The notes below the pieces were generated by a model. It made no database searches and was not told where the DNA came from. It saw nothing but the letters and a program-made list of their open reading frames with translations. From a virus (lineage: Duplodnaviria > Caudoviricetes), in IMG/VR virus record IMGVR_UViG_3300049581_000247, positions 7,815 to 71,814 of that record: 64,000 nt of DNA; one strand, given 5' to 3'. A program made the translations under genes and the position numbers. Below are positions 25,872 through 61,471 of the stretch, in pieces (position 1 is the stretch's first letter; each line of letters begins with the position of its first letter).

Positions 25872-27485
25872 TTAAACCACGACCTCCACTGCGCCGGGCT
25901 TGGTCTCGAAGAAGCCCCGCTTCATGCAGTACTTTCGGAAGTACATCGGATAAGTCATGGCATCGAACGGATGCTTCCACTTCGATGTCGGATCGGGAGA
26001 GTCCGGCTGGTCCTTGGCGCGCGGAAGATTGAAGAACATGCCCTTGACGCCCTTGCAGGTGGCCGAGATCAGGATTTGCCGGTCCATCAGGAGCTCCACG
26101 GTCAAGCCAACGCGGGCCGGGACCGACCCGGGCGGCTTTGGGCATTCCACCATGCGGACGGCCTCCAGATTTCCATATCGCTCAGGGTTGCCGGCGATGA
26201 TCTCCTTGGTGTACTCGTAAATATCGGACGCATCGGTCGAGCCCTTGGCCGCCTGGAATTGATTGAAGGCGGAGTTGTCGGAGATGTGGCGGAATTGGAA
26301 TCCATACTTCATGCGCCGGCACCAGTAGGCCATCTTTTCCAGCATCGCATGCGACAGCTTGCGGTAAGGAAGGTGTTTTCCGGTGTAGTAGATTTCATCG
26401 AAGATAATCCAATACGGACCAAACTTGGTCTCCATGCACTGCATGAACACGATGCCGCTGTTCACCTTGCCGAGGTCGTATCCCATCACGATGGGATAAC
26501 CGGGATGCGGCACCAGCCCGCGCCCCATCTTCGCATCGCCGACCACGTGCTGCGCTTCCGAGAAGAACAACTTGAAGATGGCGTCACCCTTGGGGTAGGC
26601 CATCCATCGCCCATCGATGAGCCGCTTGTAAAGGATTGGGTCAGACCGGAAACTACGCTCCAGCTTTGCCCTGTAGCCAGCGGGCAGACGATGCGCGTTC
26701 TCTCCGAACGGGACAAAATAAACCGAGAGCGCGGGGTCTCGGACGATTCCCGGCCGCTCAGGGTCGTTCGGCCACACTCGGCCGCGCGGATCGCCTTCAT
26801 CAAGGACGTAGGCTTCGTCCTCGTAACACAGGGTATAGACCCAGTGATCCGGGTCTTCTGGATTGCAAGTTGCGAGGTACTGCTGGGGGCCGGTGATGCC
26901 CTGACGGCGCCCAAGCTGGGCGTGTGGGAATGTGAAATAATCCCGGCTGGAACAATTCGTTAGCTCCTCCACGTAAATCTGGGAGGGTGCAGGACCCTTG
27001 ATGCGCGACTGCACCATCGAAGCATGCGGGATGGATTTTAGCATCAGCTTGGACCATCCAGTCTGACGGTTGCCAACCCACATGTGGCGGTCCTTGGTCA
27101 CTGAGTCCATGCGCCAGGGCATCGCATCCAGTCCGATGCCGGAAACCCAGCGCGGGATAACCTGATTCTCTAGGTCATAACCAAAGCCCTCGTAACCCGT
27201 GGTCTGGGTTGGGGCGATAGCGATCGTCAGGGCGTTGTAGTTCTCGTAGAGATGGCGGATCACCTTATCTCCAGCCCCGTAGCTTTTCCCGCTGCCTTTC
27301 GGGCCTACCATGATGACGATTTCAGCCGGGTCCTCGAAGGCGAGTCGCTGAGTCGGATTCAGGTCGGGGTACCATCCGTCCGACCGTGTTCGCCTCGGCT
27401 TCTTGGCCGGCGGCGGCTCATCCGGCTCGTTCACGCTCTCAACCAGAGCACGGGCCATCAGATCATCATCGTTCTTGGAGGCCAT
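25872..27485 (-). CDS. terL: Terminase large subunit (537 aa)
   Basis: Walker A GPKGSGKS, Walker B IYVEE, coupling motif ATCNP, nuclease MGYDLG and KHPFDAMTY. Confidence 0.92.
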   Translation of the reverse strand: MASKNDDDLMARALVESVNEPDEPPPAKKPRRTRSDGWYPDLNPTQRLAFEDPAEIVIMVGPKGSGKSYGAGDKVIRHLYENYNALTIAIAPTQTTGYEGFGYDLENQVIPRWVSGIGLDAMPWRMDSVTKDRHMWVGNRQTGWSKLMLKSIPHASMVQSRIKGPAPSQIYVEELTNCSSRDYFTFPHAQLGRRQGITGPQQYLATCNPEDPDHWVYTLCYEDEAYVLDEGDPRGRVWPNDPERPGIVRDPALSVYFVPFGENAHRLPAGYRAKLERSFRSDPILYKRLIDGRWMAYPKGDAIFKLFFSEAQHVVGDAKMGRGLVPHPGYPIVMGYDLGKVNSGIVFMQCMETKFGPYWIIFDEIYYTGKHLPYRKLSHAMLEKMAYWCRRMKYGFQFRHISDNSAFNQFQAAKGSTDASDIYEYTKEIIAGNPERYGNLEAVRMVECPKPPGSVPARVGLTVELLMDRQILISATCKGVKGMFFNLPRAKDQPDSPDPTSKWKHPFDAMTYPMYFRKYCMKRGFFETKPGAVEVVV

Positions 27486-34284: not shown

Positions 34285-34356
34285 TGGAGCCCGCCCCTGG
34301 AATCGAACCAGACCACCAGCCATACAAAGAGCGGTGTTGGCGCCGGCCATGCGGGC
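34285..34356 (-). tRNA. Degenerate tRNA-Thr(UGU)-like element
   Basis: GCCCGC/GCGGGC acceptor, U73 plus CCA, T arm TCTGG-TTCGATT-CCAGG, loop TT-TGT-AT; D arm shortened, anticodon stem mispaired (72 nt). Confidence 0.55.
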
Positions 34357-34364
34357 TAAAGGCG

Positions 34365-35021
34365 TTATCGTGGCGTGCAGAGCACATCAATCTGGACCAT
34401 GTCGAAATTCAGCCAGGACTCGGCCGGCTTGACGTCGTAGCCCAAGGACTGGAGAGGGTCGATGATGTCGCTGTTGGTGTATCCGTTCAGGGCCAGGGCT
34501 TCCTTCTGGATTTCGATGAGCATGACCGGCCGATGGCGAGCAAGGGTCTTCATGGCCCCGGCGATGGCGTCCGGCTCGTACCCCTCGATGTCCATCTTGA
34601 TGAACTCGATTCTGGGTGAGTCGGGCTTGATGACATCGTCCAGTGCGTACATCGCAACATCGCCACCGGAGACAACCCGGGCCATGCCTAGGTTCTTGTT
34701 CTGGTGGTTTTCAACCCCGACGGTGCCGGTTTTCCTGCCCAAGGCGGCATTGACAGGGGTCACGTTGGGGTAGGCCTTCATGTTGTGCGCAAGGCATTCG
34801 TAGGCCAGCTTGTTCGGCTCGAAGGCGATAACCTGGCCATTGGGGCCGACCAGCTCCGAGTAGGTCGAGGTGTGGTCGCCCAGGCAGGCGCCGGCATCGA
34901 TCACGATTCCGCCCCGCGGGATCAGGTGCTTGAACATATCCAGGTACTCCTTGGCTACGTTCAGCCGGCGCTGCTCGATGATCCACTTGCTGAGGTGGGT
35001 GTCACCATCGACCACTGCCAC
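34365..35021 (-). CDS. FkbM-family SAM methyltransferase (about 218 aa)
   Basis: VIDAGACLGDHT, VIAFEP, IKMDIEGYE, PVMLIE. Confidence 0.88.
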   Translation of the reverse strand: MAVVDGDTHLSKWIIEQRRLNVAKEYLDMFKHLIPRGGIVIDAGACLGDHTSTYSELVGPNGQVIAFEPNKLAYECLAHNMKAYPNVTPVNAALGRKTGTVGVENHQNKNLGMARVVSGGDVAMYALDDVIKPDSPRIEFIKMDIEGYEPDAIAGAMKTLARHRPVMLIEIQKEALALNGYTNSDIIDPLQSLGYDVKPAESWLNFDMVQIDVLCTPR

Positions 35022-35945: not shown

Positions 35946-36886
35946 CTCGCCGCATTCGCCTCGGCCTCGTTCCCGTCGGCTTCAGCTTGGAGCTTGAGGA
36001 GCCTCGGGGTCCAGAACCCCTCCGGCACCTTGCCGAAGATGTCATTCAGGATGGCGGTCAGCTTTGGCCTGGCGGCATCACGCAGCCATATCAGGCCCTC
36101 CGCGTTGACCCTCAGGATCATGAGCGGCTTTCCCGACAGCTTGGCGGCCACGGCGTTGGCGATCTTGTAGAAGGCCACATCCGTCGTATCGCGGGTATTC
36201 TCGGCGTTCATCGCGTGGAGGTAGAGGTGGAGGGCGCGGGCCGGATCGCGCTCGGTGAATCCGATGGCGTCCTTGATCTGCTTCACGAGGACTCCGGCCT
36301 GCGCGGGGTTGACCATCTGCGCCAGCATCAGGGCTCCCGCCATCGGACGGGGGCAGAGCTTGCGGAGCTGGTTCTTGTAGTGGGCGGCGATCACCACGTC
36401 TGCCTCGATATGGGTCAGTATCTTTTTCGCCATCCACGGCTCGAAGGTGGCGCTGCCGCCGATGCCGTGCCGGTAGAGGGCACTGAGGACCGAGGCCATC
36501 AGGGTGGGATGGGGCAGGTCGCTGCGCGTCGTCGACAGCATGTCGCCCAGCGTGCGCTCGGCGCCCTGCCCGATCACCTCGAATTCCTCCGGTTCGCAGC
36601 CGAACCACACCGTCATCTCGGCGGCGACGCCGGCCTCGACCACCGCCCACAGGCGATGCTGGCCCTCGATCAGGGTTTCCTTGCAGTGGTTGCCGTTCGC
36701 GTCGGTGAACGGCTTGGAGAAGGCGATGGGCTCAGGAGTGAGCCTCCATTCCCCCCGCTTCATCGCCAGCGCATAGGAGTCCACCAGATGCTGGCGGATG
36801 GGTCGGTTGTGCGTGTTCTTTTCCAGCCATTTCGTGGCCACCTCCGGGGTGACCTGCATGATCTTTACTTTGCGCGTGTTGCTCAT
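35942..36886 (-). CDS. ParB/Srx-superfamily protein (314 aa)
   Basis: VTPEVATKWL..NRPI..YA..MKRGEW..PIAF..LIEGQHRLWAVV. Confidence 0.72.
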   Translation of the reverse strand: MSNTRKVKIMQVTPEVATKWLEKNTHNRPIRQHLVDSYALAMKRGEWRLTPEPIAFSKPFTDANGNHCKETLIEGQHRLWAVVEAGVAAEMTVWFGCEPEEFEVIGQGAERTLGDMLSTTRSDLPHPTLMASVLSALYRHGIGGSATFEPWMAKKILTHIEADVVIAAHYKNQLRKLCPRPMAGALMLAQMVNPAQAGVLVKQIKDAIGFTERDPARALHLYLHAMNAENTRDTTDVAFYKIANAVAAKLSGKPLMILRVNAEGLIWLRDAARPKLTAILNDIFGKVPEGFWTPRLLKLQAEADGNEAEANAAR

Positions 36887-37940
36887 TGGGTATGTTCGTT
36901 GGGTTGGCAGACAGGTAAATATCGGTGGTTCGGGTGGACGCATGTCCGACCTCGGCGGCAACCTCCCGCTTGGCAGCCATCTCCTCCATCTTGAGCTTCA
37001 CCCGGGATTGGATGTAGGTGGTGCGGAGGCCATGGAAGGTCTTGCCGGCGATCCCGTTTTTCCGGCAGAGTGAGGAGAACTCCGCTGAGATGCGGGCTGG
37101 CCCCCCGGGAGAAAGATACAGGGCTCGGTAGTAGGGGAAGAGGTAGGGCGTCCCATTCTCCATCACGGCGGCGAATACCTTCTTCAGGTCCTCGCTGATC
37201 TTGAGCTCGACGACCGCGCCGGTCTTGGAGGTCCGGCACCGCAAAGTATCGCCATCGAGGTTGTCCTTCTCGAGCTGGCAGATGTCGCCAAGCCGCATGC
37301 CCATGTACCAGGAAATGTGGACCGCGTACCCCCAGAAGGGGTGGAGCGTGCAGGCCTGGAGGATGTGGTGCGCCTCGGCATCGGTCCAGGGCTCATGGTG
37401 CTTCGTCAGCTTCTCGGACTGGCTGAGCTGGGAGGTGACGATTCCGGCCGAATCAGAGTGGTTTGTCAGCATCAGGCCGACTCCGATGCAAAAGGAGCAG
37501 AACGAGGAGCACGCGGCCTTGCGGTTGCGGAGGGTCCCGAGCTTCGTGCCGTCGCCCGGGTTGAAGAAGGCGCGGAAGTGCCTGCCGTCGACCGAGGTGG
37601 TCATCGCGTCCTGGAGTCCGGCCTTTTCGATCCAGGCAAGCAGGACCTTGCGGTAGCTGGCGATGGTCTGATCCGATCGGCCCCGCAGGTGGAGGCGGTC
37701 GAGGAACACGTCGACGGCAGCCGAGACGAGGCACTTCTTCTGTCCGCTGAGCCGGGTGACCAGGTCGCTTGTGATCCCGGCCGACTGTGCCGCCTTCTCC
37801 AGGACGATCAGGCCGCCTTCCCGCGCCATGCGCTTGGCGTCCTCCATGTTCTTCGTCTTCGTGGTCTTCCAGCGAATCCGGCCATGGGCCGGCTTGACCC
37901 CGACGTAGATGAACCCTGACTTGGAATACTTGAACTTCAT
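36732..37940 (-). CDS. Tyrosine recombinase (Xer/integrase family, 402 aa)
   Basis: Complete catalytic set: MRLGD (R), SKT (K), FHGLR (HxxR), VGHAS (H), TDIY (Y); C-terminus overlaps the next gene by 155 nt. Confidence 0.9.
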   Translation of the reverse strand: MKFKYSKSGFIYVGVKPAHGRIRWKTTKTKNMEDAKRMAREGGLIVLEKAAQSAGITSDLVTRLSGQKKCLVSAAVDVFLDRLHLRGRSDQTIASYRKVLLAWIEKAGLQDAMTTSVDGRHFRAFFNPGDGTKLGTLRNRKAACSSFCSFCIGVGLMLTNHSDSAGIVTSQLSQSEKLTKHHEPWTDAEAHHILQACTLHPFWGYAVHISWYMGMRLGDICQLEKDNLDGDTLRCRTSKTGAVVELKISEDLKKVFAAVMENGTPYLFPYYRALYLSPGGPARISAEFSSLCRKNGIAGKTFHGLRTTYIQSRVKLKMEEMAAKREVAAEVGHASTRTTDIYLSANPTNIPNEQHAQSKDHAGHPGGGHEMAGKEHAQPTHPPASGGLLCAGDEAGGMEAHS

Positions 37941-39512: not shown

Positions 39513-40931
39513 TTATTCATCCCGGTGCTCCCGTTCGATCTGGTCCTGGGCGGCCGCGAGAGCCTCCTGCCTGGCGCGCGCCTCCTCGATGGCGATCTCC
39601 TCCATCAGCTCCTTCTCCCTGGCGCTGGCGGAGCGGGCGATCGCGGCATTGGCTGCATCCTCGGAGGGAATGTCGGAGGAGGCGGTTTCCCCGATGACCG
39701 TCTCCTCTTCCGCCAGCCGGTCAAGCCGTTTGCGGAACCGCTGGACATCGCCCGGCATCACGTAGTACAGGCCGGAAGCGGTCGGCAGGCCGATCATCCC
39801 GAGCCGCTGGACGAAGCGCCGGACGATCTCCGGGGTGTATGTCTTGTCGTTGTTTTTCCCAACCGCCGCCATGCTGACGTAGGGGATGTCATACCGGCCC
39901 TGGTCGTCGTTGAGAAACCCGAGCGCATGCCCGGCGGTCCAGGCCAGGGCGCCGGGGAGAAGGTCCATGACGGCAAAATCGGACCGCTCGAAGCCCACAT
40001 TGGAGGAGCCCGGGATTCGCACGATCTTCCCGGAACTGTCGAGGTAGTCCGGCCTGGCCGGCCCGCGAAGATTCAGGTGCGCCTGATGCGCCGGAGCCGG
40101 GGGACTGAGGTGTGTCGAACCCTTCTCGAGGAAGTAATCGGCGGGGCGCTGATAGGGATAGGAGTGTCTCGGGTATCCGTAGTCGTCGGCGAGGATGTTC
40201 GATCCGATTTGCGTCTGAAATCGGACGAGGTTTTCGTCCCACCTCGGGGGATAGGAGATGTCCTCTCCCACGGGATTTTTGAGCATGTACTCCAGGGTTG
40301 CCGCATGCAACCCCTTCGGGAGAATCTCGGCGATGTTCTCGGGCAGCTCGAACCAGGATGAGAGCGTCGCATTGAAGAACATCTGGGAGGCGGCGCGGAT
40401 CAGGTCGCCATTCTCCGCAATCTCCCCGGGCGATCGGATGCAGACCCGGGAATGCAGGTCGTGCGTCTCCTTGCCGAGATGACCGACGGTCAGGTGCAGG
40501 CCGACCACGCCGGCTTCGTCGGTGTGGTCCGTCCCTGATTGGAAGGCGGTGGCCGAACAGTGGTGATGAACCGAGCCCATCCTCTGCCACGGATCAGGGA
40601 AGAGCGCCATGTCCTCGTTGAAGTTGGGGTGATCGGGCAGCTCCCGTGTCGTCATCCCGGATGGATAGCGCTGGGGGAAGGCATGAGCCCGCCACTCCTT
40701 GGTCGCATCGTTGTAGTACAGGCGGACCTGGACCTCGTCCGACTTGTGCTTTTGGAAGAAGGCGATGATAGTCTGCCAGAGGGACATCTTGATTCTGCCG
40801 CCGTTCCACGCCATCCATGGGTCGGAGGAGGGGATTTCCCGGTCGGGGAAGTAGCCGTAGAATCCGTTGAGATTCTTGAGCTTGTAGACCTTGCCGTCCT
40901 TGATGATCTCGCCCGGAGTTGCCTTGCTCAT
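39513..40931 (-). CDS. JAB/MPN+ metallopeptidase (DUB-like) with long C-terminal extension (472 aa)
   Basis: DEVQVRLYY (catalytic Glu region) and GSVHHHCSATAFQSGTDHTDE (HxH..S..D motif). Confidence 0.85.
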   Translation of the reverse strand: MSKATPGEIIKDGKVYKLKNLNGFYGYFPDREIPSSDPWMAWNGGRIKMSLWQTIIAFFQKHKSDEVQVRLYYNDATKEWRAHAFPQRYPSGMTTRELPDHPNFNEDMALFPDPWQRMGSVHHHCSATAFQSGTDHTDEAGVVGLHLTVGHLGKETHDLHSRVCIRSPGEIAENGDLIRAASQMFFNATLSSWFELPENIAEILPKGLHAATLEYMLKNPVGEDISYPPRWDENLVRFQTQIGSNILADDYGYPRHSYPYQRPADYFLEKGSTHLSPPAPAHQAHLNLRGPARPDYLDSSGKIVRIPGSSNVGFERSDFAVMDLLPGALAWTAGHALGFLNDDQGRYDIPYVSMAAVGKNNDKTYTPEIVRRFVQRLGMIGLPTASGLYYVMPGDVQRFRKRLDRLAEEETVIGETASSDIPSEDAANAAIARSASAREKELMEEIAIEEARARQEALAAAQDQIEREHRDE

Positions 40932-40968: not shown

Positions 40969-42204
40969 TTACATCGCCCCGGCCTCGGCGGTCGGGGCGG
41001 GGGCGGCTGGAGCGGCGGGAGCGGGGGCCAGCATATCCAGCGTCAGGATGCCGGCTCCGGCGCGCTTCACCACCCCGCCGAGCTTCTCTGTGATGCCGCG
41101 CGGCTCCGTCACATCATCGGGGATGACAATCTTGTAGGCGCTGAACACCATTCCCCGCGTGATCGGGCTGGCCGGGAAGCCGGAGATGAGGGCGGCCATG
41201 TTCTTCGGCAACGCGGCCATGATCTCGTCGTGGCCAGCGTGGCCGGGCTGGTACGCCGCGTGGGCTTGCAGTTCCCCATCGGTCAGCGGTCGGATGTCGT
41301 TCATGGTGAGGAGGACGATTCCAATCATCCCCCCATCGGCCGAGATAGGCCTGGCGTAAATTTTGTGCCGATCTGCGGATTGGACCGAAAAGATCGGGCG
41401 CCGGGTGAGCGGGATACTGATCGCTCCCATCATGCTCCTCTCGTGCGTTCCCTTGGTTGTGACGAGGGTCCCGATGGGCGGCGGAACATGCGGCTTCAAC
41501 TTGTCCGGCGGGACCCGGCGAACGTAGCCATCGAGCGAGGTCAGGATGATCCTCCCATCGGGCTCATTCACCGAAGAGCAGATCATGACATCCCCGGGAT
41601 TTCCGGAGTAGCCGAATTCCACGCGGTCCATGTCGTTCTTGAATTCCACCAGCTGGAGCTGGGTGAATGCGTGGGCGGGGCCGGCCGGGGCGGCTGGAGC
41701 GGGCGCGGGGGCGGCTGGAGCGGGCGCGGGGGCGGCCGCCTCAGTCACAACCCCAGGGATGAGCGGGGAGAGAAGCCACTCGATCGGGACGTTCCACGTG
41801 CCGCCCGTCTCGTCGGCCCCGGTTTGGAGGGCGATAATCACCCCGACATCGTCCACGATTGAAACATCGATCGCGGGATGGGTCCGGTTCACGTCGATAC
41901 TATCATTCATCCAGCCACCGTCCGACAGCGTTGCTGCGTTCTGGATGACGTAATTGCGGAACTTGAGATCGGCATTCAGGTAGCATGCCCGAACCCCCTC
42001 GGGATTCCGGACGACCACGTGCTCCCTCTGGAGAACGAGGCGGGACCGGACTGGCGGATCGGACACCCCGTCGTGAAACAGGTCCACGATGACATAGTCG
42101 GTGGTTTCGACGGCAATGCTGTAGGCGCACAGCGGGTCGAACAGCTCGGACTGGCCGGTGTAGATTCCGCGATGTTCGGGTTTAACGTAAGCGACATTAT
42201 TCAT
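40969..42204 (-). CDS. Multidomain hypothetical protein with Pro-Ala linkers (411 aa)
   Basis: APAPAPAAPAPAP linkers separating beta-rich domains; lies inside the Ubl cassette. Confidence 0.7.
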   Translation of the reverse strand: MNNVAYVKPEHRGIYTGQSELFDPLCAYSIAVETTDYVIVDLFHDGVSDPPVRSRLVLQREHVVVRNPEGVRACYLNADLKFRNYVIQNAATLSDGGWMNDSIDVNRTHPAIDVSIVDDVGVIIALQTGADETGGTWNVPIEWLLSPLIPGVVTEAAAPAPAPAAPAPAPAAPAGPAHAFTQLQLVEFKNDMDRVEFGYSGNPGDVMICSSVNEPDGRIILTSLDGYVRRVPPDKLKPHVPPPIGTLVTTKGTHERSMMGAISIPLTRRPIFSVQSADRHKIYARPISADGGMIGIVLLTMNDIRPLTDGELQAHAAYQPGHAGHDEIMAALPKNMAALISGFPASPITRGMVFSAYKIVIPDDVTEPRGITEKLGGVVKRAGAGILTLDMLAPAPAAPAAPAPTAEAGAM

Positions 42205-42922
42205 GGTCTTTTCTGAGTTTGGTTTGGATTTTGTTGAAGTTGCTGATGTGGTGGAAGGCGGCGTATTCCCTGGCCTCCTTGGTCAGGCCCGGGACCTCCT
42301 GGGTCCAAATCCAGAGGAGATGGAGGCCGTAGCCTGCGGCCATGAAGTTGGCGATGGCGAGCTGCGGGGCGGCGGCCTGCGCCTCTCCGGTGCAGCCGAC
42401 CGGGGCGAGCGGGTCCCCGGTGTGGGTGGTCGCGATTTCCGGGTAGTACCGCCTCGGGTCCAGCTTTGTCCCCTTCCAGTCGGGGTGATAGAAGAACGCC
42501 TCCGCGTCCGTGTAACCGTTGCCGCATAGGATGCAGCGGAGCCGGTGCAGGTCGCAGGCCTCGAGCACCCGGAGCCGGCCGGGGTGGTTGTCCACGCAGC
42601 AGATCACCAGCGGGGGCTGATCGAATTCCTCCTGGCCGGTGAAGTACTCAGGCATCGCCCGAAGGTTCGGATAGTAGCTGGAATATTTGGAGACGAGCGC
42701 CTCGGCCTTGTTCGATCCGACATCGCTGTCGTCGAAGAGCTGGCGCTCCATGTTGCGCTTTTCCAGCGTGTCGCCGTCGAAGACCACGACGCCCGGAGAC
42801 TTGTCCGGATCGGAGTGGTTCCGGATGGTGCGGAGCAGGGTGGGCAACAGGAAGCTGCCGACACCGCCAGCGCCAACAAGGACGACGGGCGGGAAGGGGT
42901 GGAGTGATTTTGGTTTGTCCAT
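42197..42922 (-). CDS. E1-like ThiF/MoeB adenylyltransferase (241 aa)
   Basis: VLVGAGGVGS, FDGDTLEKRNMERQLF, VGSNKAEAL, CCVDN, PVGCT..PQLAIAN (candidate catalytic Cys). Confidence 0.9.
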   Translation of the reverse strand: MDKPKSLHPFPPVVLVGAGGVGSFLLPTLLRTIRNHSDPDKSPGVVVFDGDTLEKRNMERQLFDDSDVGSNKAEALVSKYSSYYPNLRAMPEYFTGQEEFDQPPLVICCVDNHPGRLRVLEACDLHRLRCILCGNGYTDAEAFFYHPDWKGTKLDPRRYYPEIATTHTGDPLAPVGCTGEAQAAAPQLAIANFMAAGYGLHLLWIWTQEVPGLTKEAREYAAFHHISNFNKIQTKLRKDHE

Positions 42923-42928
42923 GGCTGG

Positions 42929-43279
42929 TTAGGTTAGGGTGTCTTCGTCTCTTTCTCCGTCGGCATCATCCTCCACCTCCTCATCCTCCGCATCGGCGGG
43001 TTCCCCGGGGACGGGAATGACGGGCGCGACGGCCTCTTCCGCCTCATCCAGAAGGTTGAACAGGTCCCTGGAGCAATGGCCATGGGCGGAGCCGCGAATG
43101 GCGATGGCCAGGGCCCAAACATCCCTGGCCTTGGCCTTGTCTGCTTCGGGGATATCAAACAGGCTGGGGTCCCTCGTCAGGTTGATGAGTATTTCGCGAA
43201 GATCGGAAGCGATATCCCCCGTGCCGACCTGCCGCTCGGCCATCTCCACGACACCCATCTCGTCGATTGGCTGGCTCAC
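42929..43279 (-). CDS. Acidic hypothetical protein (116 aa)
   Basis: ORF track; D/E-rich tail; between E2 and E1. Confidence 0.65.
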   Translation of the reverse strand: MSQPIDEMGVVEMAERQVGTGDIASDLREILINLTRDPSLFDIPEADKAKARDVWALAIAIRGSAHGHCSRDLFNLLDEAEEAVAPVIPVPGEPADAEDEEVEDDADGERDEDTLT

Positions 43280-44043
43280 GGCACATCCCCCAGGTTGTGG
43301 GCCAGCTCGACGACCCAGTTATATCCGCTGCCGGCGATCTGCTTGCAGAGCGGTCGCCAGTCCGCAGCCGACGGGGGGAGCTGCTTCCCGTCGGGCGTGA
43401 ACCGGACCATCCGCGCCGCCTCCGTCCTCCGGCCATCCGTCAGGTGGGAGTTCCACCTCGCCCCGGAGAAGTGGGCCAGGGCCTGCTCGAGGTATTGCTC
43501 GGCCGAGATTCGCCCGGCCTCGTACTCGATCAGGCAGTCACTTGACGACCAGCCATCGCCCATGCAAATCCTGCCGTCGTCGAAGAGGTTCGAGAGCGGC
43601 AGGCGGTAGGAGAAGAAGTTGCCCTCCCTGCCCGGTCCGCCTGGGGAGATGAAGGACAGGTACGGATCGGTGCCGAGCCGCGTCACGAAGTACGCCGCGC
43701 AGCCAGGCATCGGAACCCAGTCGAACTGATGCTCGACCGTTCCGGGTCCCGGGACGAACTTCGGAACCAGCACCGGCTCGGCGGAGTTTTCGTCCATCCC
43801 CCAGGAGGTGTTGAGCCGGAGGAACGGGAGCCTGACGGCATAGACTGGATCGCCCGATGCCAGCATGTGCACGGGCAGGCCGCCGCCGATCTTGAAGACG
43901 TTGCGAAGCGGCGTCCCTGTCTTGTTAGCCGCCTGCTGGAGGAGGTCGTTCCTGACCCCGAGGTCACGCAGCGCGAGGCTGAGTGAGTACATCCGGCCAT
44001 CCGGACCGATCGCCACGCAGCGATCGAGAATGTGACTGCTCAT
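43276..44043 (-). CDS. Prokaryotic E2-like (UBC-fold) protein (255 aa)
   Basis: YRLPLSNLFDDGRICMG (Cys codon 43564-43566), ..FSGARWNSHL; resembles the Prok-E2 family D/PRTRC protein B pattern. Confidence 0.75.
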   Translation of the reverse strand: MSSHILDRCVAIGPDGRMYSLSLALRDLGVRNDLLQQAANKTGTPLRNVFKIGGGLPVHMLASGDPVYAVRLPFLRLNTSWGMDENSAEPVLVPKFVPGPGTVEHQFDWVPMPGCAAYFVTRLGTDPYLSFISPGGPGREGNFFSYRLPLSNLFDDGRICMGDGWSSSDCLIEYEAGRISAEQYLEQALAHFSGARWNSHLTDGRRTEAARMVRFTPDGKQLPPSAADWRPLCKQIAGSGYNWVVELAHNLGDVP

Positions 44044-44071
44044 GTTTTTGATGATGTTGCTTAAAGGTTAA

Positions 44072-44099
44072 GGGCGGCGCAGGCTGACCCACGCCGCCC
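44072..44099 (-). terminator. Hairpin (attenuator/terminator-like) between the Ubl and E2 genes
   Basis: GGGCGGCG-N12-CGCCGCCC followed on the minus strand by TTAACCTTT. Confidence 0.5.
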
Positions 44100-44156
44100 C
44101 ATAGCGCGCTATGGTGTGCGGGATTCACCCGGACACCGTGCCCTATCGGGCGGCCG

Positions 44157-44603
44157 TCAGGCCGCCTTTTCCTGGGCGCGGGTCTCGATGTCGATGGTCA
44201 TCCCGTCCGAGACGGTGAGGTCATCGTTCACGCTGGCGCCGTTGATCTTGGCGACGACACCGTCGGTGAAGCCCAGCGCCGCCCGGTACGTCGGGTTCTG
44301 GAGAACCGAACGGACCGTGGTGGCGGAGTCGACCTGGACCGACAGGACGTTCGCGGCGCCGTAGCGCAGCGTGATCCGGGAGGTCGCAGCCTTCTCCTGG
44401 GCCGCCTGTTCGACCGAGATGCTGTCACCCTCGCGGATGACATATCCGGTACCGACCGGCGCGCCGTTGATCTTGGCGACGACACCCGTGCCGAAGCCGA
44501 GGACCGCCTTGATCGTGACATCACCGAGGACCTGGGCGATCGTGAGACCGACGAGGTTCTTGGTGAGCTCGTTGCCGTAGCCGTAGCTGATCTTGTTGCT
44601 CAT
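44157..44603 (-). CDS. Tandem di-ubiquitin-like (beta-grasp) protein, both units ending in AQEKAA (148 aa)
   Basis: Two about 74 aa units: T(I/V)..VL..ALGF..GVVAKINGA.V..GD/G..I.(V/I)E..AQEKAA; 26 bp perfect repeat at 44236-44261 and 44461-44486. Confidence 0.85.
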   Translation of the reverse strand: MSNKISYGYGNELTKNLVGLTIAQVLGDVTIKAVLGFGTGVVAKINGAPVGTGYVIREGDSISVEQAAQEKAATSRITLRYGAANVLSVQVDSATTVRSVLQNPTYRAALGFTDGVVAKINGASVNDDLTVSDGMTIDIETRAQEKAA

Positions 44604-59487: not shown

Positions 59488-60414
59488 TTATGATTCTTCT
59501 TCGTCGTCGTTGGTGGCCGAGGTCATTCCGGTGAGGAGCGACTTGTCGGAGTAAGATGAGTCGGGCAGGTCGATGAAGCCCGGCCTGTCCGATGAATCCG
59601 ACCATTCCGGCCAGGTGTCGGTCATGCGGCAAGCCCGAAGTTTCGATATGTCCTTGTCGATCAACATATCGCCCGTATCCATGGCGGAGGCGGCAAGCTG
59701 CTTGACGTTGACCTTCGGGAGCCGCCCCTTCTCCAGGATGACAAAGAAATAGCGGACGCTCTTGGCGCCGAGCAGGGTCGCCAGCAGCCGATACATCGCG
59801 GCCTGCTTGTGATAAAACCGCTTCCTGATCTCCCACGAGAATGTGTTGGTGTCTCCAGCCTTGGCGGTCTTGAAGTCGGTGATGGTGATGATGAGCTGCC
59901 CGTCGCCGTCCCGCTCCAGCTGCATGTAATCCGGCCGGCCCTTGATGAGGAACCCGCAGCCCGGGTAGCGGGCGAAGAGCGAGACCTCGGCATAGCCGCC
60001 CGTCAGGAGCGGCTGGGCGAGCGGATGGTCGATGATGTACCGGGCGACGCTCTTGCTGGCATCGGCCTCCTCCTGGCTGATAATGGGCCGGTCCCTGTGC
60101 GCCTCGAGCCACGCCCTGCACTCGGAGGCTCCGGCGTGCCACTTCTTGTTTTCCGGCCCATAGGTGGCGGGCTGGACATAATAGGGCAGCTCCCTGCCCT
60201 CCAGGAGCTCGCTGTGGATGATGGAACCGAGCTCCATCTCATGGGAGCGGACGAAGGGCAGAAGGCCGAGGCGGGTCCGGTGATAGTCCAGCGGGGAGCG
60301 GGAGAGGATTCTCAGCTCCGAGTTGGAGATGCCGGGAGCCCGGCGGTAGACCTCATTGGGGACGTTGAGGAAGGCCCCGACCTTCTCGGGGATGAATTCG
60401 TGGAAGAGTTCCAT
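59488..60414 (-). CDS. RecE/exonuclease VIII-like PD-(D/E)xK nuclease (308 aa)
   Basis: GISNSEL, LGSIIH, EVSLF, KGRPDY, DFKT, YHKQAAMY. Confidence 0.88.
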   Translation of the reverse strand: MELFHEFIPEKVGAFLNVPNEVYRRAPGISNSELRILSRSPLDYHRTRLGLLPFVRSHEMELGSIIHSELLEGRELPYYVQPATYGPENKKWHAGASECRAWLEAHRDRPIISQEEADASKSVARYIIDHPLAQPLLTGGYAEVSLFARYPGCGFLIKGRPDYMQLERDGDGQLIITITDFKTAKAGDTNTFSWEIRKRFYHKQAAMYRLLATLLGAKSVRYFFVILEKGRLPKVNVKQLAASAMDTGDMLIDKDISKLRACRMTDTWPEWSDSSDRPGFIDLPDSSYSDKSLLTGMTSATNDDEEES

Positions 60415-60418
60415 CGTG

Positions 60419-61471
60419 TTACATGCACCTGCCGTTGATGATCTTCTTGTTCTCGACCTCGAAATCCGCCGATGGCGCCAGCGTGACGAAGGCGAACCCA
60501 TGGTTCCACTTGTTGAACGGGCGGTAGTTTGGATGCAGCTCGCACAGGCAGCCCAGCGACCAGCTGCCCAGCGTCTTGCCCTCCAGCGTGTTCTCGATGT
60601 GCTCGGAGCTGTGATGAAAGTGGCCGCAGGCCGAGTTGGCCTTGGCCCGCAGGAAGAGCCACCGGGCGGCATTGACCGGGGCGATGGTGGGCTCGGCGAA
60701 TTCGTGGCCGTGGAGGACCGAGAGCTTCCCAACGGCGATGGGCCGCTTGTCGGTGACATACTCGATGCCAAGGCCGGGCAGGCCGACGATCATCTCCAGT
60801 CGGAATTCGCGAATCCCGAACAGCTTCTCGGCGTTCAGCATCAGGTAGTGAACGTACCGCTCGTCGTGGTTGCCGTCCTTCCAGATGATTCGGGCCTTGG
60901 GGAAGTGCTCCCGGAGCGACTCGAGGAACTGCTTGCAGCACTCGATCTCGGAGGCGGGGTCCCGGCGGCGCGGGTCCTTGATGAAGCGGGAGAGCTGATG
61001 GAAGTCGAGCTGGTCCCCGTTCAGGATGATGCAGGTGACATCGCGCTTCCTGGCCTCCTCGATGGCGATCCGGATGGCGCCGACGCTGTGATACGGAAAG
61101 TGCAGGTCGCTCAGGACCAGGATGCTCTCGTTCTTTGTGCCGGCTGAGACAAAATGGGGAAGGAACTGGTTTTCCTCGTTCGGCGGGATGTAGAACGGAC
61201 TGGCCCTGAGGACCGAGACAGAGTTGGTCAACGGCGACGGCGGGGCCTTGAATCCGTTCCCCCTGTGCTTCCGGTTGGCGTTGCCGTGTGCGCCCCGGGC
61301 ATATCTCACGGCCTGGCGAACGGCGTCGAGGTTTCGCCAGACGGCGGGGTTCTGCTCAAGAAGGTGGCGGGCGATCGTTTGTGATGGGAGTTCCGGGGTC
61401 TCTGACAGGGCTTTCCGAATGAGTTCGGTTCCGATGGGGTTCGAGCTGCTGGTGGTTCGTGGCTGGATCAC
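60419..61471 (-). CDS. Calcineurin-like metallophosphoesterase with N-terminal HTH-like region (350 aa)
   Basis: SDLHFPYH, NGDQLD, GNHDER, LHGHE, GHFH. Confidence 0.88.
   Translation of the reverse strand: MIQPRTTSSSNPIGTELIRKALSETPELPSQTIARHLLEQNPAVWRNLDAVRQAVRYARGAHGNANRKHRGNGFKAPPSPLTNSVSVLRASPFYIPPNEENQFLPHFVSAGTKNESILVLSDLHFPYHSVGAIRIAIEEARKRDVTCIILNGDQLDFHQLSRFIKDPRRRDPASEIECCKQFLESLREHFPKARIIWKDGNHDERYVHYLMLNAEKLFGIREFRLEMIVGLPGLGIEYVTDKRPIAVGKLSVLHGHEFAEPTIAPVNAARWLFLRAKANSACGHFHHSSEHIENTLEGKTLGSWSLGCLCELHPNYRPFNKWNHGFAFVTLAPSADFEVENKKIINGRCM

What the first reader, a model, noticed from the sequence alone, without database searches (positions are those of the whole stretch)
44157..44603. 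Di-ubiquitin-like polyprotein whose two units both end in QEKAA, not Gly-Gly
Seen: units aa 1-73 and 74-148 share ALGF..GVVAKINGA and both end in AQEKAA (junction at 44385/44384), with a 26 bp DNA repeat. The conserved internal tail implies JAB processing into two monomers, like eukaryotic polyubiquitin. There is no C-terminal Gly. Established: ThiS/MoaD/Ub end in GG, PRTRC Ubls in KG, and some CBASS CD-NTases are conjugated through a C-terminal Ala. Inference: Ala-linked conjugation, with the Lys in EKAA possibly allowing chain formation. A hairpin directly downstream (44072-44099) could give excess Ubl over the enzymes.
Basis: partly seen in the sequence, partly recalled or inferred. Interest (0 to 1): 0.82.

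Follow-up and report, generated by a model that had tools for sequence, protein, structure and literature searches.

The report
Phage poly-ubiquitin-like tag ending Lys-Ala
A complete 72-kb temperate phage from rhizosphere metagenomes encodes a ubiquitin-like tag as two head-to-tail copies, each ending in the same Lys-Ala tail rather than Gly-Gly, next to its own activating, carrier and trimming enzymes. This is an untested phage branch of a known kind of bacterial tagging system.

Summary
ORF 44157-44603 (-) encodes two beta-grasp units that are 44% identical (E 2e-16). The AlphaFold model (pLDDT 92) matches ISG15 and linear di-ubiquitin. Contigs from two other metagenome runs bridge the unit junction with no differences.

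One correction: the conserved tail is x-K-A, not QEKAA. I scored 178 units from 124 relatives carrying 1 to 4 units. The penultimate Lys is invariant. The last residue is Ala in 131 units and Gly in 39. It is followed by 0-10 variable cap residues. A148 is therefore a cap, and the expected cut sites are A72|A73 and A147|A148.

Within one protein the tails are 86% identical, while the unit bodies are about 50% identical.

The gene sits in a cassette conserved in about 25 viral loci: Ubl, an E2-like protein (invariant N152 and C160), a small acidic protein, a ThiF-type E1, a variable protein, and a JAMM peptidase with the full E..HxHx7Sx2D motif. A GC-rich hairpin follows the Ubl gene in 21 of 22 loci, usually with a U-tract.

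The closest known system is the uncharacterised plasmid PRTRC cassette. Its Ubls also end in K-G or K-A, but curated cut-offs are not met and no ParB is present.

Processing, Ala activation and targets are inferred, not shown. Earlier AI notes of this scan report similar phage Ubl cassettes on at least 28 other genomes.

The parts
44157..44603 (-). Di-Ubl precursor gene, 148 aa, with an AAGGA ribosome-binding site 8 nt upstream
   Evidence: AlphaFold pLDDT 92.4 with two beta-grasp domains. Foldseek top hits are ISG15 and linear di-ubiquitin, E 3e-8.
44388..44603 (-). Unit 1 (aa 1-72), ending EQAAQEKA. The predicted scissile bond A72|A73 lies between 44388 and 44387.
   Evidence: HMM unit boundaries and tail alignment. 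The residue after K-A varies in relatives (A, S, N).
44163..44387 (-). Unit 2 (aa 73-147, the linker starting at A73), ending ETRAQEKA
44160..44162 (-). Cap residue A148, predicted to be trimmed off
   Evidence: Close relatives carry A, AA, V, VA, S or L after K-A. 38 of 113 family members have no cap.
44236..44261 (.). Copy 1 of the exact 26-bp direct repeat (encodes GVVAKINGA). Copy 2 is at 44461-44486.
44461..44486 (.). Copy 2 of the exact 26-bp direct repeat
44071..44100 (-). 13-bp GC-rich stem-loop between the Ubl and E2-like genes. It is terminator-like with a weak U-tract (UUAACCUUUAA).
   Evidence: Equivalent hairpins occur in 21 of 22 related loci, with a U-rich tail in at least 14 of 19.
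43276..44043 (-). E2-like protein, 255 aa, motif LSNLFDDGRICMG. N152, C160 and G162 are invariant. The C160 codon is 43564-43566.
   Evidence: Alignment of 17-20 orthologues. Sub-threshold Prok-E2_D hits in 3 of 3 orthologues. hhalign against PRTRC_B gives E 2.5e-5, probability 75%. Model pLDDT 87; the top structural matches are UBC/E2 chains, Z 4.3-4.8.
42929..43279 (-). Small acidic protein, 116 aa. A small gene holds this position (85-116 aa, matched by an HMM) in the window, L001 and the L004-L006 group.
42197..42922 (-). E1, a ThiF-type adenylyltransferase of 241 aa, with GAGGVGS and invariant C177 in the motif GCTG
   Evidence: Pfam ThiF E 1.4e-15. Best NCBIfam hit is PRTRC_ThiF at 60.9 bits, below the 144.75 cut-off. 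Alignment A4.
40969..42204 (-). Variable 411-aa protein with Ala/Pro linkers. No family was found. A candidate adaptor or target.
39513..40931 (-). JAMM/JAB peptidase, 472 aa. Motif HHHCSATAFQSGTD at aa 122-135 (40527-40568). E66 is invariant. The C-terminal extension varies.
   Evidence: The complex with the di-Ubl gets weak support only: 0.45 against a best control of 0.13.

Best explanation
The ORF is a polyubiquitin-style precursor of a phage-encoded ubiquitin-like modifier. It holds two complete beta-grasp units, each ending in the family signature [E]-x-x-A-[N/Q]-x-K-A.

Inferred steps, none shown:
1. The cassette's JAMM peptidase cuts after K71-A72 at the junction and after K146-A147 at the end, removing the A148 cap. 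This releases two modifiers of about 7.6 kDa whose C-terminal residue is Ala.
2. The ThiF-type E1 adenylates that Ala carboxylate, possibly forming a thioester on C177.
3. The modifier passes to C160 of the Prok-E2_D-like E2 and is joined to amino groups of unknown protein targets.
4. The JAMM enzyme can also reverse the conjugation.

Two features raise the amount of tag relative to enzymes: two units per mRNA, and a conserved hairpin/terminator between the Ubl gene and the enzyme genes.

The cassette lies at the end of the early region, just upstream of the integrase, so it probably acts early in infection on host or phage proteins. That placement argument, and the role itself, are inference.
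For: Shown by sequence or tools:
- Repeat and fold.
- 124 relatives with 1-4 units. In 178 units the penultimate Lys is invariant; the last residue is Ala in 131, Gly in 39 and other in 8. Cap length is 0 in 38 proteins, 1 in 45, 2 in 17, and 3-10 in 13.
- Tail columns are 0.86 identical between units of one protein, against about 0.5 for the body. Between proteins the figures are 0.43 and 0.31.
- In the P0001-P0006 clade, unit 1s and unit 2s form separate groups, and the tails co-vary: QQKA in both units of P0003, AN[RQ]KA in both units of P0005.
- The cassette Ubl / E2-like / E1 / JAB recurs in about 25 viral or metagenomic loci, including tri- and tetra-Ubl loci.
- The JAMM motif is complete and invariant.
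- The E2-like N152/C160/G162 are invariant and the fold matches are UBC-like.
- Hairpins are conserved in position and structure but not in sequence.
- The junction is bridged by contigs of two other runs.

Precedents from papers:
- The BilC JAB trims up to 9 residues after the conserved Gly of BilA (PMC10557695).
- CBASS cGAS is conjugated through a C-terminal Gly or Ala, and Cap3 cuts a tandem cGAS-cGAS fusion (PMC10097602).
Against: No cleavage, adenylation, thioester or conjugate has been observed for this family or for PRTRC. No functional paper was found.

Similarity of tails within a protein could partly reflect gene conversion. The exact 26-bp repeat shows that some homogenisation occurs.

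Relatives were retrieved with a query that includes the tail, so some ascertainment bias is possible.

The E2 assignment rests on sub-threshold scores (Pfam E 0.004-0.31; structural Z below 5).

The window's own hairpin has a poor U-tract (4 U in 9).

Bil and Bub Ubls with 2-3 beta-grasp domains are used as intact proteins (PMC11601603).
Confidence: 0.6

Rival explanations
1. The protein is an intact tandem modifier like ISG15, type I BilA or Bub Ubl2/Ubl3. It is never split. Only the C-terminal tail is trimmed and activated. The internal tail persists through recent duplication or gene conversion, or serves as a linker.
For: The fold search ranks ISG15 first. Multi-beta-grasp bacterial Ubls that act unsplit are documented (PMC11601603). 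Units within a protein are on average more alike (52%) than units between proteins (31%). The 26-bp exact repeat points to homogenisation.
Against: In the window's clade the duplication is older than the divergence of six proteins and the bodies have fallen to 32-45% identity. The internal tail nevertheless stays intact and co-varies with the terminal one. All 65 internal units keep the Lys, and 64 of them keep A or G after it. By my own knowledge, not tested here, the N-terminal domain of ISG15 lacks the LRLRGG tail.
Confidence: 0.22
2. The protein is a ThiS/MoaD-type sulfur carrier. The E1 makes a C-terminal thiocarboxylate for a phage-encoded thio-modification, and there is no protein conjugation.
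For: The only Pfam hit of the Ubl family is ThiS (21.2 bits for the window; 13 of 58 monomers). The E1 is a minimal ThiF/MoeB-size enzyme. JAB-ThiS-E1 sulfur operons exist (PMC1779556).
Against: The tail has no Gly-Gly. No rhodanese, ThiG, MoaE or other sulfur-pathway gene was found in the cassette. An E2-like protein with an invariant Cys is always present. The poly-unit architecture with caps has no known use in sulfur carriers.
Confidence: 0.06
3. The protein is a non-covalent beta-grasp adaptor or decoy, for example a mimic that titrates host Ubl-based defence enzymes. The neighbouring enzymes act on something else.
For: Targets are unknown. Phage genes often mimic host defence components. 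The complex prediction with the JAB is only weak.
Against: An invariant C-terminal dipeptide with variable caps, and strict linkage to E1, E2-like and JAB genes in about 25 loci, are the hallmarks of an activated C-terminus.
Confidence: 0.08

Closest known systems
PRTRC cassette of plasmids and ICEs (NCBIfam TIGR03734-03742). Protein C is Pfam Prok_Ub PF14454; protein B is Pfam Prok-E2_D PF14460.
   Same: The E1 and JAB have PRTRC_ThiF and PRTRC_A as their best NCBIfam hits. The E2-like protein aligns to PRTRC_B over the catalytic loop. PRTRC_C proteins read here end in TKG, TKA, TKQ or AKG+SHA, the same Lys-[Gly/Ala] end with an optional cap. Both are carried on mobile elements. No functional study was found for either.
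   Different: All scores are far below the curated cut-offs. The Ubl family shows no significant similarity to Prok_Ub. No ParB or protein F match was found in the complete phage genome. Gene order differs. The carrier is a phage. The Ubl comes in 1-4 tandem units. Ala is the majority end residue.
Eukaryotic polyubiquitin genes (UBB/UBC/UBI4 type)
   Same: Head-to-tail units each carry the full reactive tail. One or a few extra residues cap the last unit. A dedicated peptidase would be needed to release monomers.
   Different: There is no detectable sequence relationship beyond the fold. The tail is Lys-Ala, not Gly-Gly. The predicted protease is a JAMM metalloprotease encoded in the same operon. 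Units of one protein are 31-79% identical, not nearly identical as in polyubiquitin.
BilABCD (bacterial ISG15-like) anti-phage systems
   Same: The parts list is the same: Ubl, E2, JAB, E1. In Bil the JAB (BilC) pre-processes the Ubl by removing up to 9 non-conserved residues after a universally conserved residue (PMC10557695). The overall tandem beta-grasp shape matches.
   Different: In Bil the conserved residue is Gly. The Bil E1 has a separate CYS domain, whereas this E1 is only 241 aa. Bil is a host defence system and this cassette is in a phage. No Bil-family profile hits were obtained here.
Type II CBASS Cap2/Cap3 conjugation of cGAS
   Same: It uses a C-terminal Gly or Ala as the activated residue. 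The JAB (Cap3) cleaves a head-to-tail fusion at the first C-terminus (PMC10097602). The E1 here gives weak PADLOC hits to Cap2-type E1-E2 proteins.
   Different: The conjugated protein in CBASS is a nucleotidyltransferase, not a beta-grasp Ubl, and the penultimate residue varies there. Here the penultimate Lys is invariant.
Tandem bacterial Ubls of Iyer, Burroughs and Aravind 2006 (mlr6139 type, 2-3 Ub-like repeats) and Bub Ubl2/Ubl3
   Same: Prokaryotic proteins with 2-3 tandem beta-grasp domains lie in E1/JAB neighbourhoods. They were already called 'reminiscent of eukaryotic poly-ubiquitin' (PMC1779556).
   Different: No Pfam Multi_ubiq hit was found. Ubl3 proteins act as intact filaments (PMC11601603). 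Here every unit keeps its own reactive tail.

Membership tests
PRTRC system (NCBIfam) | ThiF family protein reaching the TIGR03736 cut-off (144.75 bits) | tested here: not met
   It is the best hit, but at only 60.9 bits, E 1.1e-16.
PRTRC system (NCBIfam) | Protein A (JAB) reaching the TIGR03735 cut-off (101.8 bits) | tested here: not met
   24.1 bits, E 2.2e-5, over aa 41-166. The JAMM motif is nevertheless complete.
PRTRC system (NCBIfam) | Protein B, a Prok-E2_D-type E2 (PF14460, gathering score 25 bits) | tested here: inconclusive
   E 0.31, 0.076 and 0.0043 in three orthologues, always at the catalytic loop. hhalign against seven PRTRC_B-position proteins gives E 2.5e-5, probability 75%, over 65 columns.
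PRTRC system (NCBIfam) | Protein C, a Prok_Ub-type Ubl (PF14454 / TIGR03738) | tested here: not met
   No hit for the window or for 58 monomers. hhalign gives E 0.19. Only the K-[G/A] end is shared.
PRTRC system (NCBIfam) | PRTRC ParB family protein (TIGR03734) in the same element | tested here: not met
   No match at E <= 0.01 in the complete 71,814-bp genome, while the control genomes gave matches.
Polyubiquitin-type precursor | Head-to-tail units, each with the complete reactive tail | tested here: met
   Both units end in AQEKA. All 65 internal units of relatives keep the Lys, and 64 keep A or G after it.
Polyubiquitin-type precursor | Extra residue(s) capping the last unit | tested here: met
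   A148 in the window.
Polyubiquitin-type precursor | Proteolytic release of monomers | not testable with these tools
   Support is indirect only: a JAMM gene in every cassette, and weak complex support of 0.45 against a best control of 0.13.
Polyubiquitin-type precursor | Gly-Gly C-terminus | tested here: not met
   The tail is Lys-Ala.
ThiS/MoaD sulfur carriers | Pfam ThiS above the gathering score, a Gly-Gly end, and a partner sulfur-pathway enzyme | tested here: not met
   ThiS scores 21.2 bits against a gathering score of 22.5. There is no Gly-Gly. No ThiG, MoaE or rhodanese was found in the cassette.
ISG15 / BilA type I tandem modifiers | Two beta-grasp domains in one chain | tested here: met
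   Model pLDDT 92.4. ISG15 chains are the top Foldseek hits, E 3e-8.
ISG15 / BilA type I tandem modifiers | Only the C-terminal domain carries the reactive tail | tested here: not met
   The internal tail is identical to the terminal one over AQEKA and conserved across the family.
JAMM/MPN+ metalloprotease (the 472-aa protein) | E ... HxHx7Sx2D metal-binding and catalytic motif | tested here: met
   E66, H122, H124, S132 and D135 are invariant in 16 orthologues.
UBC-fold E2 (the 255-aa protein) | UBC fold with a catalytic Cys eight residues after a conserved Asn | tested here: inconclusive
   N152 and C160 are invariant. The structural matches are dominated by E2 and UEV chains, but only at Z 4.3-4.8, rmsd about 4.3 A, 112-128 residues, and Foldseek E 0.08-0.3.

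The most novel reading that the evidence does not exclude
Temperate and other phages run their own ubiquitin-like conjugation pathway. Its tag is a beta-grasp protein naturally activated through a C-terminal alanine preceded by an invariant lysine. The tag is produced in excess from poly-Ubl precursors and a terminator-attenuated operon, and it is used early in infection to modify host or phage proteins, for example in counter-defence or the lysis-lysogeny decision. This would be the first Ala-terminated beta-grasp Ubl, and the first prokaryotic or viral Ubl shown to be released from a true poly-precursor.
Probability: 0.4. Interest if true: 0.78.

Novelty: new variant of a known kind. Interest (0 to 1): 0.62.

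Why it matters
Ubiquitin-like conjugation in prokaryotes has so far been tested only as host defence (CBASS Cap2/Cap3, Bil) or as the uncharacterised Bub and PRTRC operons. This cassette puts the same chemistry in the hands of a phage. It also suggests two features usually taught as eukaryotic or exceptional:
- a polyubiquitin-style precursor in which every unit keeps the reactive tail;
- a non-glycine (Ala) reactive C-terminus on a genuine beta-grasp modifier.

The invariant Lys next to the end gives a practical handle. Trypsin would leave a single Ala (+71.04 Da) on modified lysines, so targets could be mapped directly.

The family-wide terminator after the tag gene is a clear example of stoichiometry control inside an operon.

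The system is small (two units of about 74 aa, E1 of 241 aa, E2 of 255 aa) and self-contained, which makes it experimentally tractable.

Tried and rejected
- PHROGs and PADLOC gave nothing for the Ubl, E2-like, acidic, 411-aa or JAB proteins.
- tblastn of the Ubl against 50,697 GenBank phage records found no match. The terminase also had no match. The E1 matched only weakly to unrelated large phages. No cultured relative is therefore known.
- The search for related loci with the monomer alignment failed because no stretch was conserved enough. The E1 alignment was used instead.
- The word-based homologue search for the E2-like protein found only itself. The same search for PRTRC_C found only 4 proteins.
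- The Atlas search of the 411-aa protein gave only low-score SH3/Tudor-like leads. BLAST of the small neighbouring ORFs against it found nothing.
- The consensus terminator scan did not flag the 44071-44100 hairpin, because its U-tract is interrupted.
- Complex prediction on JAB(1-240) plus the di-Ubl gave weak support only: score 0.45, best control 0.13, runs agreeing in at least 63% of contacts, partner pLDDT at least 79. No interface was returned.
- No RNA holder was listed among the public runs, so expression and termination could not be checked.
- Laid contigs showed no deletion joint between the two 26-bp repeats.
- PRTRC_F gave no match, but its control did not match anywhere either, so that blank is uninformative.
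- I could not verify the equation of PRTRC with operon class 6d of Iyer et al., taken from earlier notes. Class 6d is described there with a conserved C-terminal Gly. I do not use it.

Full report
**What is there**

The window is bases 7815-71814 of a complete 71,814-bp virus record with direct terminal repeats. All long ORFs lie on the minus strand. The record carries a large terminase subunit (25872-27485), a tyrosine integrase (36732-37940) and an exonuclease VIII-like gene (59488-60771), so it is a temperate tailed phage. Near-identical DNA occurs in several rhizosphere metagenome runs from different studies.

The ORF at 44157-44603 (-) encodes 148 aa with a plausible ribosome-binding site. 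Its halves align at 44% identity, E 2e-16. Both halves end in AQEKAA. An exact 26-bp direct repeat lies at 44236-44261 and 44461-44486.

An AlphaFold model built on 35 two-unit relatives has mean pLDDT 92.4. It shows two beta-grasp domains with unstructured tails at aa 67-73 and 142-148. Foldseek ranks ISG15 and linear di-ubiquitin first, at E about 3e-8.

Contigs from two other runs bridge the unit junction without a single difference.

**The tail, seen across the family**

An exhaustive profile-free search of 1.84 billion representative proteins found 124 relatives at E <= 1e-3. All of those checked come from metagenomes, and none carries an informative name.

An HMM built from the single-unit members splits them into 75 proteins with one unit, 41 with two, 8 with three and 2 with four.

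At the HMM position that ends the unit, 178 scored units give these counts:
- The penultimate residue is Lys in 178 of 178.
- The last residue is Ala in 131, Gly in 39 and something else in 8.
- After the last unit come 0 residues in 38 proteins, 1 in 45, 2 in 17, and 3-10 in 13. These residues have no conservation.
- After an internal unit the next unit follows at once or after a short linker.

In the window's closest relatives the terminal tails read KAA, KAAA, KAV, KAVA, KAS and KAL. The junctions read KA|ATS, KA|ADA, KA|SNV, KA|NTV and KA|NDN. The conserved end is therefore Lys-Ala. A148 is a cap, and A73 is the first linker residue.

**Is the internal tail kept by selection?**

Between units of the same protein, the eight tail columns are 0.86 identical and the body columns about 0.5. 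Between different proteins the values are 0.43 and 0.31.

Overall, units of one protein are more alike (52%) than units of different proteins (31%). About 40% of units have their own partner as nearest neighbour, so duplications or homogenisation have happened repeatedly.

The window's own clade (P0001-P0006) is different. Unit 1s group together and unit 2s group together, so the duplication predates the divergence of these six proteins. The bodies have fallen to 32-45% identity, yet the tails are 75-100% identical. The tails also change in parallel: QQKA in both units of P0003, and AN[RQ]KA in both units of P0005.

That pattern is expected if both tails are read by the same enzymes. It is not expected for an ISG15-like protein whose first domain has no reactive end. 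Gene conversion limited to the tail cannot be excluded. The exact 26-bp repeat shows that local homogenisation does occur.

**The neighbourhood**

Downstream on the same strand lie, in order:
- A 255-aa protein.
- A 116-aa acidic protein.
- A 241-aa ThiF-type E1. Pfam ThiF scores E 1.4e-15. The best NCBIfam model is PRTRC_ThiF at 60.9 bits, well under its cut-off.
- A 411-aa protein without any family.
- A 472-aa protein whose only hit is PRTRC protein A, E 2.2e-5.

The 472-aa protein carries HHHCSATAFQSGTD, which is HxHx7Sx2D. In 16 orthologues E66, H122, H124, S132 and D135 are invariant, so the JAMM motif is complete.

The 255-aa protein and two orthologues each have Prok-E2_D as their only Pfam hit, below threshold and always over the same loop. 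A bona fide PRTRC protein B scores 6.5e-60 on that model. A profile-profile comparison with seven PRTRC_B-position proteins gives E 2.5e-5, probability 75%. In 17-20 orthologues N152, C160 and G162 are invariant, in the motif LPLPNxYDDGxICxG. From my own knowledge, the Asn-to-Cys spacing of eight equals that of the HPN...C motif of eukaryotic E2s. Its model (pLDDT 87.3) finds mostly E2 and UEV chains, but only at Z 4.3-4.8. I read it as a divergent E2 with moderate confidence.

**Conservation of the cassette**

The order Ubl, E2-like, (small gene), E1, (variable gene), JAB recurs in:
- A 73-kb Logan contig.
- Three JGI contigs of 36-63 kb.
- About 20 IMG/VR viral contigs, mostly 40-60 kb, found with the E1 alignment.
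- Loci with three- and four-unit Ubls.

In the IMG/VR loci the Ubl has a single unit. It usually ends exactly in KA, once in KG, or in KA plus a 4-6-residue cap. No record among 50,697 GenBank phages has it.

**The hairpin**

The stem-loop at 44071-44100 is strong. The best 44-nt window has dG -29.3 against a control mean of -15.3.

An equivalent GC-rich hairpin of 11-14 bp lies within about 60 nt after the Ubl stop codon in 21 of 22 loci. The sequences differ but the structure is the same. In at least 14 of 19 distinct loci it is followed by five or more U in nine bases, which makes it an intrinsic terminator in form.

The window's own U-tract is weak. A terminator or attenuator between the tag gene and the enzyme genes is thus a family trait. 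Tandem units would add to the same effect.

**Comparison with known systems**

PRTRC is the nearest family by profile hits, and its own Ubls share the end. The PRTRC_C proteins read from plasmids end in GTKG, KTKG, GTKA, GTKQ and AKG+SHA.

Membership fails on tested features, however:
- No score reaches a curated cut-off.
- The Ubl family is not detectably Prok_Ub.
- The complete genome has no PRTRC ParB.

I found no functional study of PRTRC in the library.

Mechanistic precedents exist. BilC, a JAB, trims up to nine residues after the conserved Gly of BilA (PMC10557695). In type II CBASS the activated C-terminal residue is Gly or Ala, an Ala-ended cGAS is conjugated, and Cap3 cuts a tandem cGAS-cGAS fusion (PMC10097602).

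Tandem bacterial Ubls were noted in 2006 as 'reminiscent of eukaryotic poly-ubiquitin' (PMC1779556). Bub and Bil Ubls with two or three beta-grasp domains act unsplit (PMC11601603). What is distinctive here is the combination: a beta-grasp Ubl with a Lys-Ala end, a reactive tail on every unit, caps, and a phage carrier.

**Most likely mechanism, and its limits**

I rate the polyubiquitin-style reading at about 0.6. In that reading JAMM cleaves after A72 and A147, E1 adenylates the Ala, the tag transfers by thioester to E2 C160, and it is conjugated to unknown targets, with JAMM also acting as the deconjugase.

Shown: the architecture, the tail statistics, the catalytic motifs, the synteny and the hairpin conservation.

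Inferred: every chemical step, the timing (from the cassette's position upstream of the integrase at the end of the early region) and the biological role.

The complex prediction for JAB with the di-Ubl gave only weak support: 0.45 against 0.13 for the best control.

The main rival, an intact ISG15-like modifier, stands at about 0.2.

**Earlier notes of this scan**

The same window carries a sister note on the whole cassette (e1-5948719). My tests agree with it. By words, 33 earlier AI notes on at least 28 other genomes describe phage Ubl cassettes, several with poly-Ubl genes and Gly-ending tails. The general phenomenon has therefore been met before in this scan on other DNA. The Lys-Ala end, the 72-kb temperate carrier and the conserved terminator are what this locus adds.

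**Verdict**

It is a new variant of a known kind of system. Interest is moderate to high because it is untested, tractable and makes sharp predictions.

Noticed in passing
window 44236-44261 and 44461-44486: An exact 26-bp direct repeat lies inside units whose bodies are otherwise only about 38% identical at protein level. It suggests micro gene conversion. It could also mediate gain or loss of units, which vary from 1 to 4 in the family. No deletion joint was seen in four metagenome runs.
   Followed up: partly
L004:8298-9781 compared with L005 and L006: Among three near-identical JGI phage contigs, one (L004) has the E2-like gene split in two (164 + 116 aa), the E1 truncated to 175 aa and the large variable gene broken up. 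The Ubl gene is intact. The cassette seems to decay in some population variants.
   Followed up: no
L048:7188-8366: The four-unit Ubl cassette (tails all KKG) lies directly upstream of a reverse transcriptase gene (Pfam RVT_1). An earlier scan note on another phage also mentions a reverse transcriptase next to such a cassette.
   Followed up: no
window 44233 and 44299: One rhizosphere run (X4) carries two substitutions in unit 2 that I read as S124I and Q102R. Both fall at positions that vary among relatives. The tails are unchanged.
   Followed up: partly
window 34285-34356 (-) and 34365-35021 (-): A single tRNA-Thr (TGT) lies directly downstream of an FkbM-family methyltransferase gene (E 5e-27), between the integrase and the packaging genes.
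   Followed up: no
window 44044-44070: The E2-like gene starts 28 nt after the hairpin, and I saw no obvious Shine-Dalgarno sequence there. If so, its translation may be inefficient, which would add to the tag-over-enzyme ratio.
   Followed up: no
L044 (Deinococcus proteolyticus plasmid pDEIPR02), 5171-9284: This PRTRC locus carries two ThiF genes. One is preceded by an annotated PRTRC protein B gene and the other by a hypothetical gene in the same position. This suggests a duplicated enzyme module sharing one protein C.
   Followed up: no
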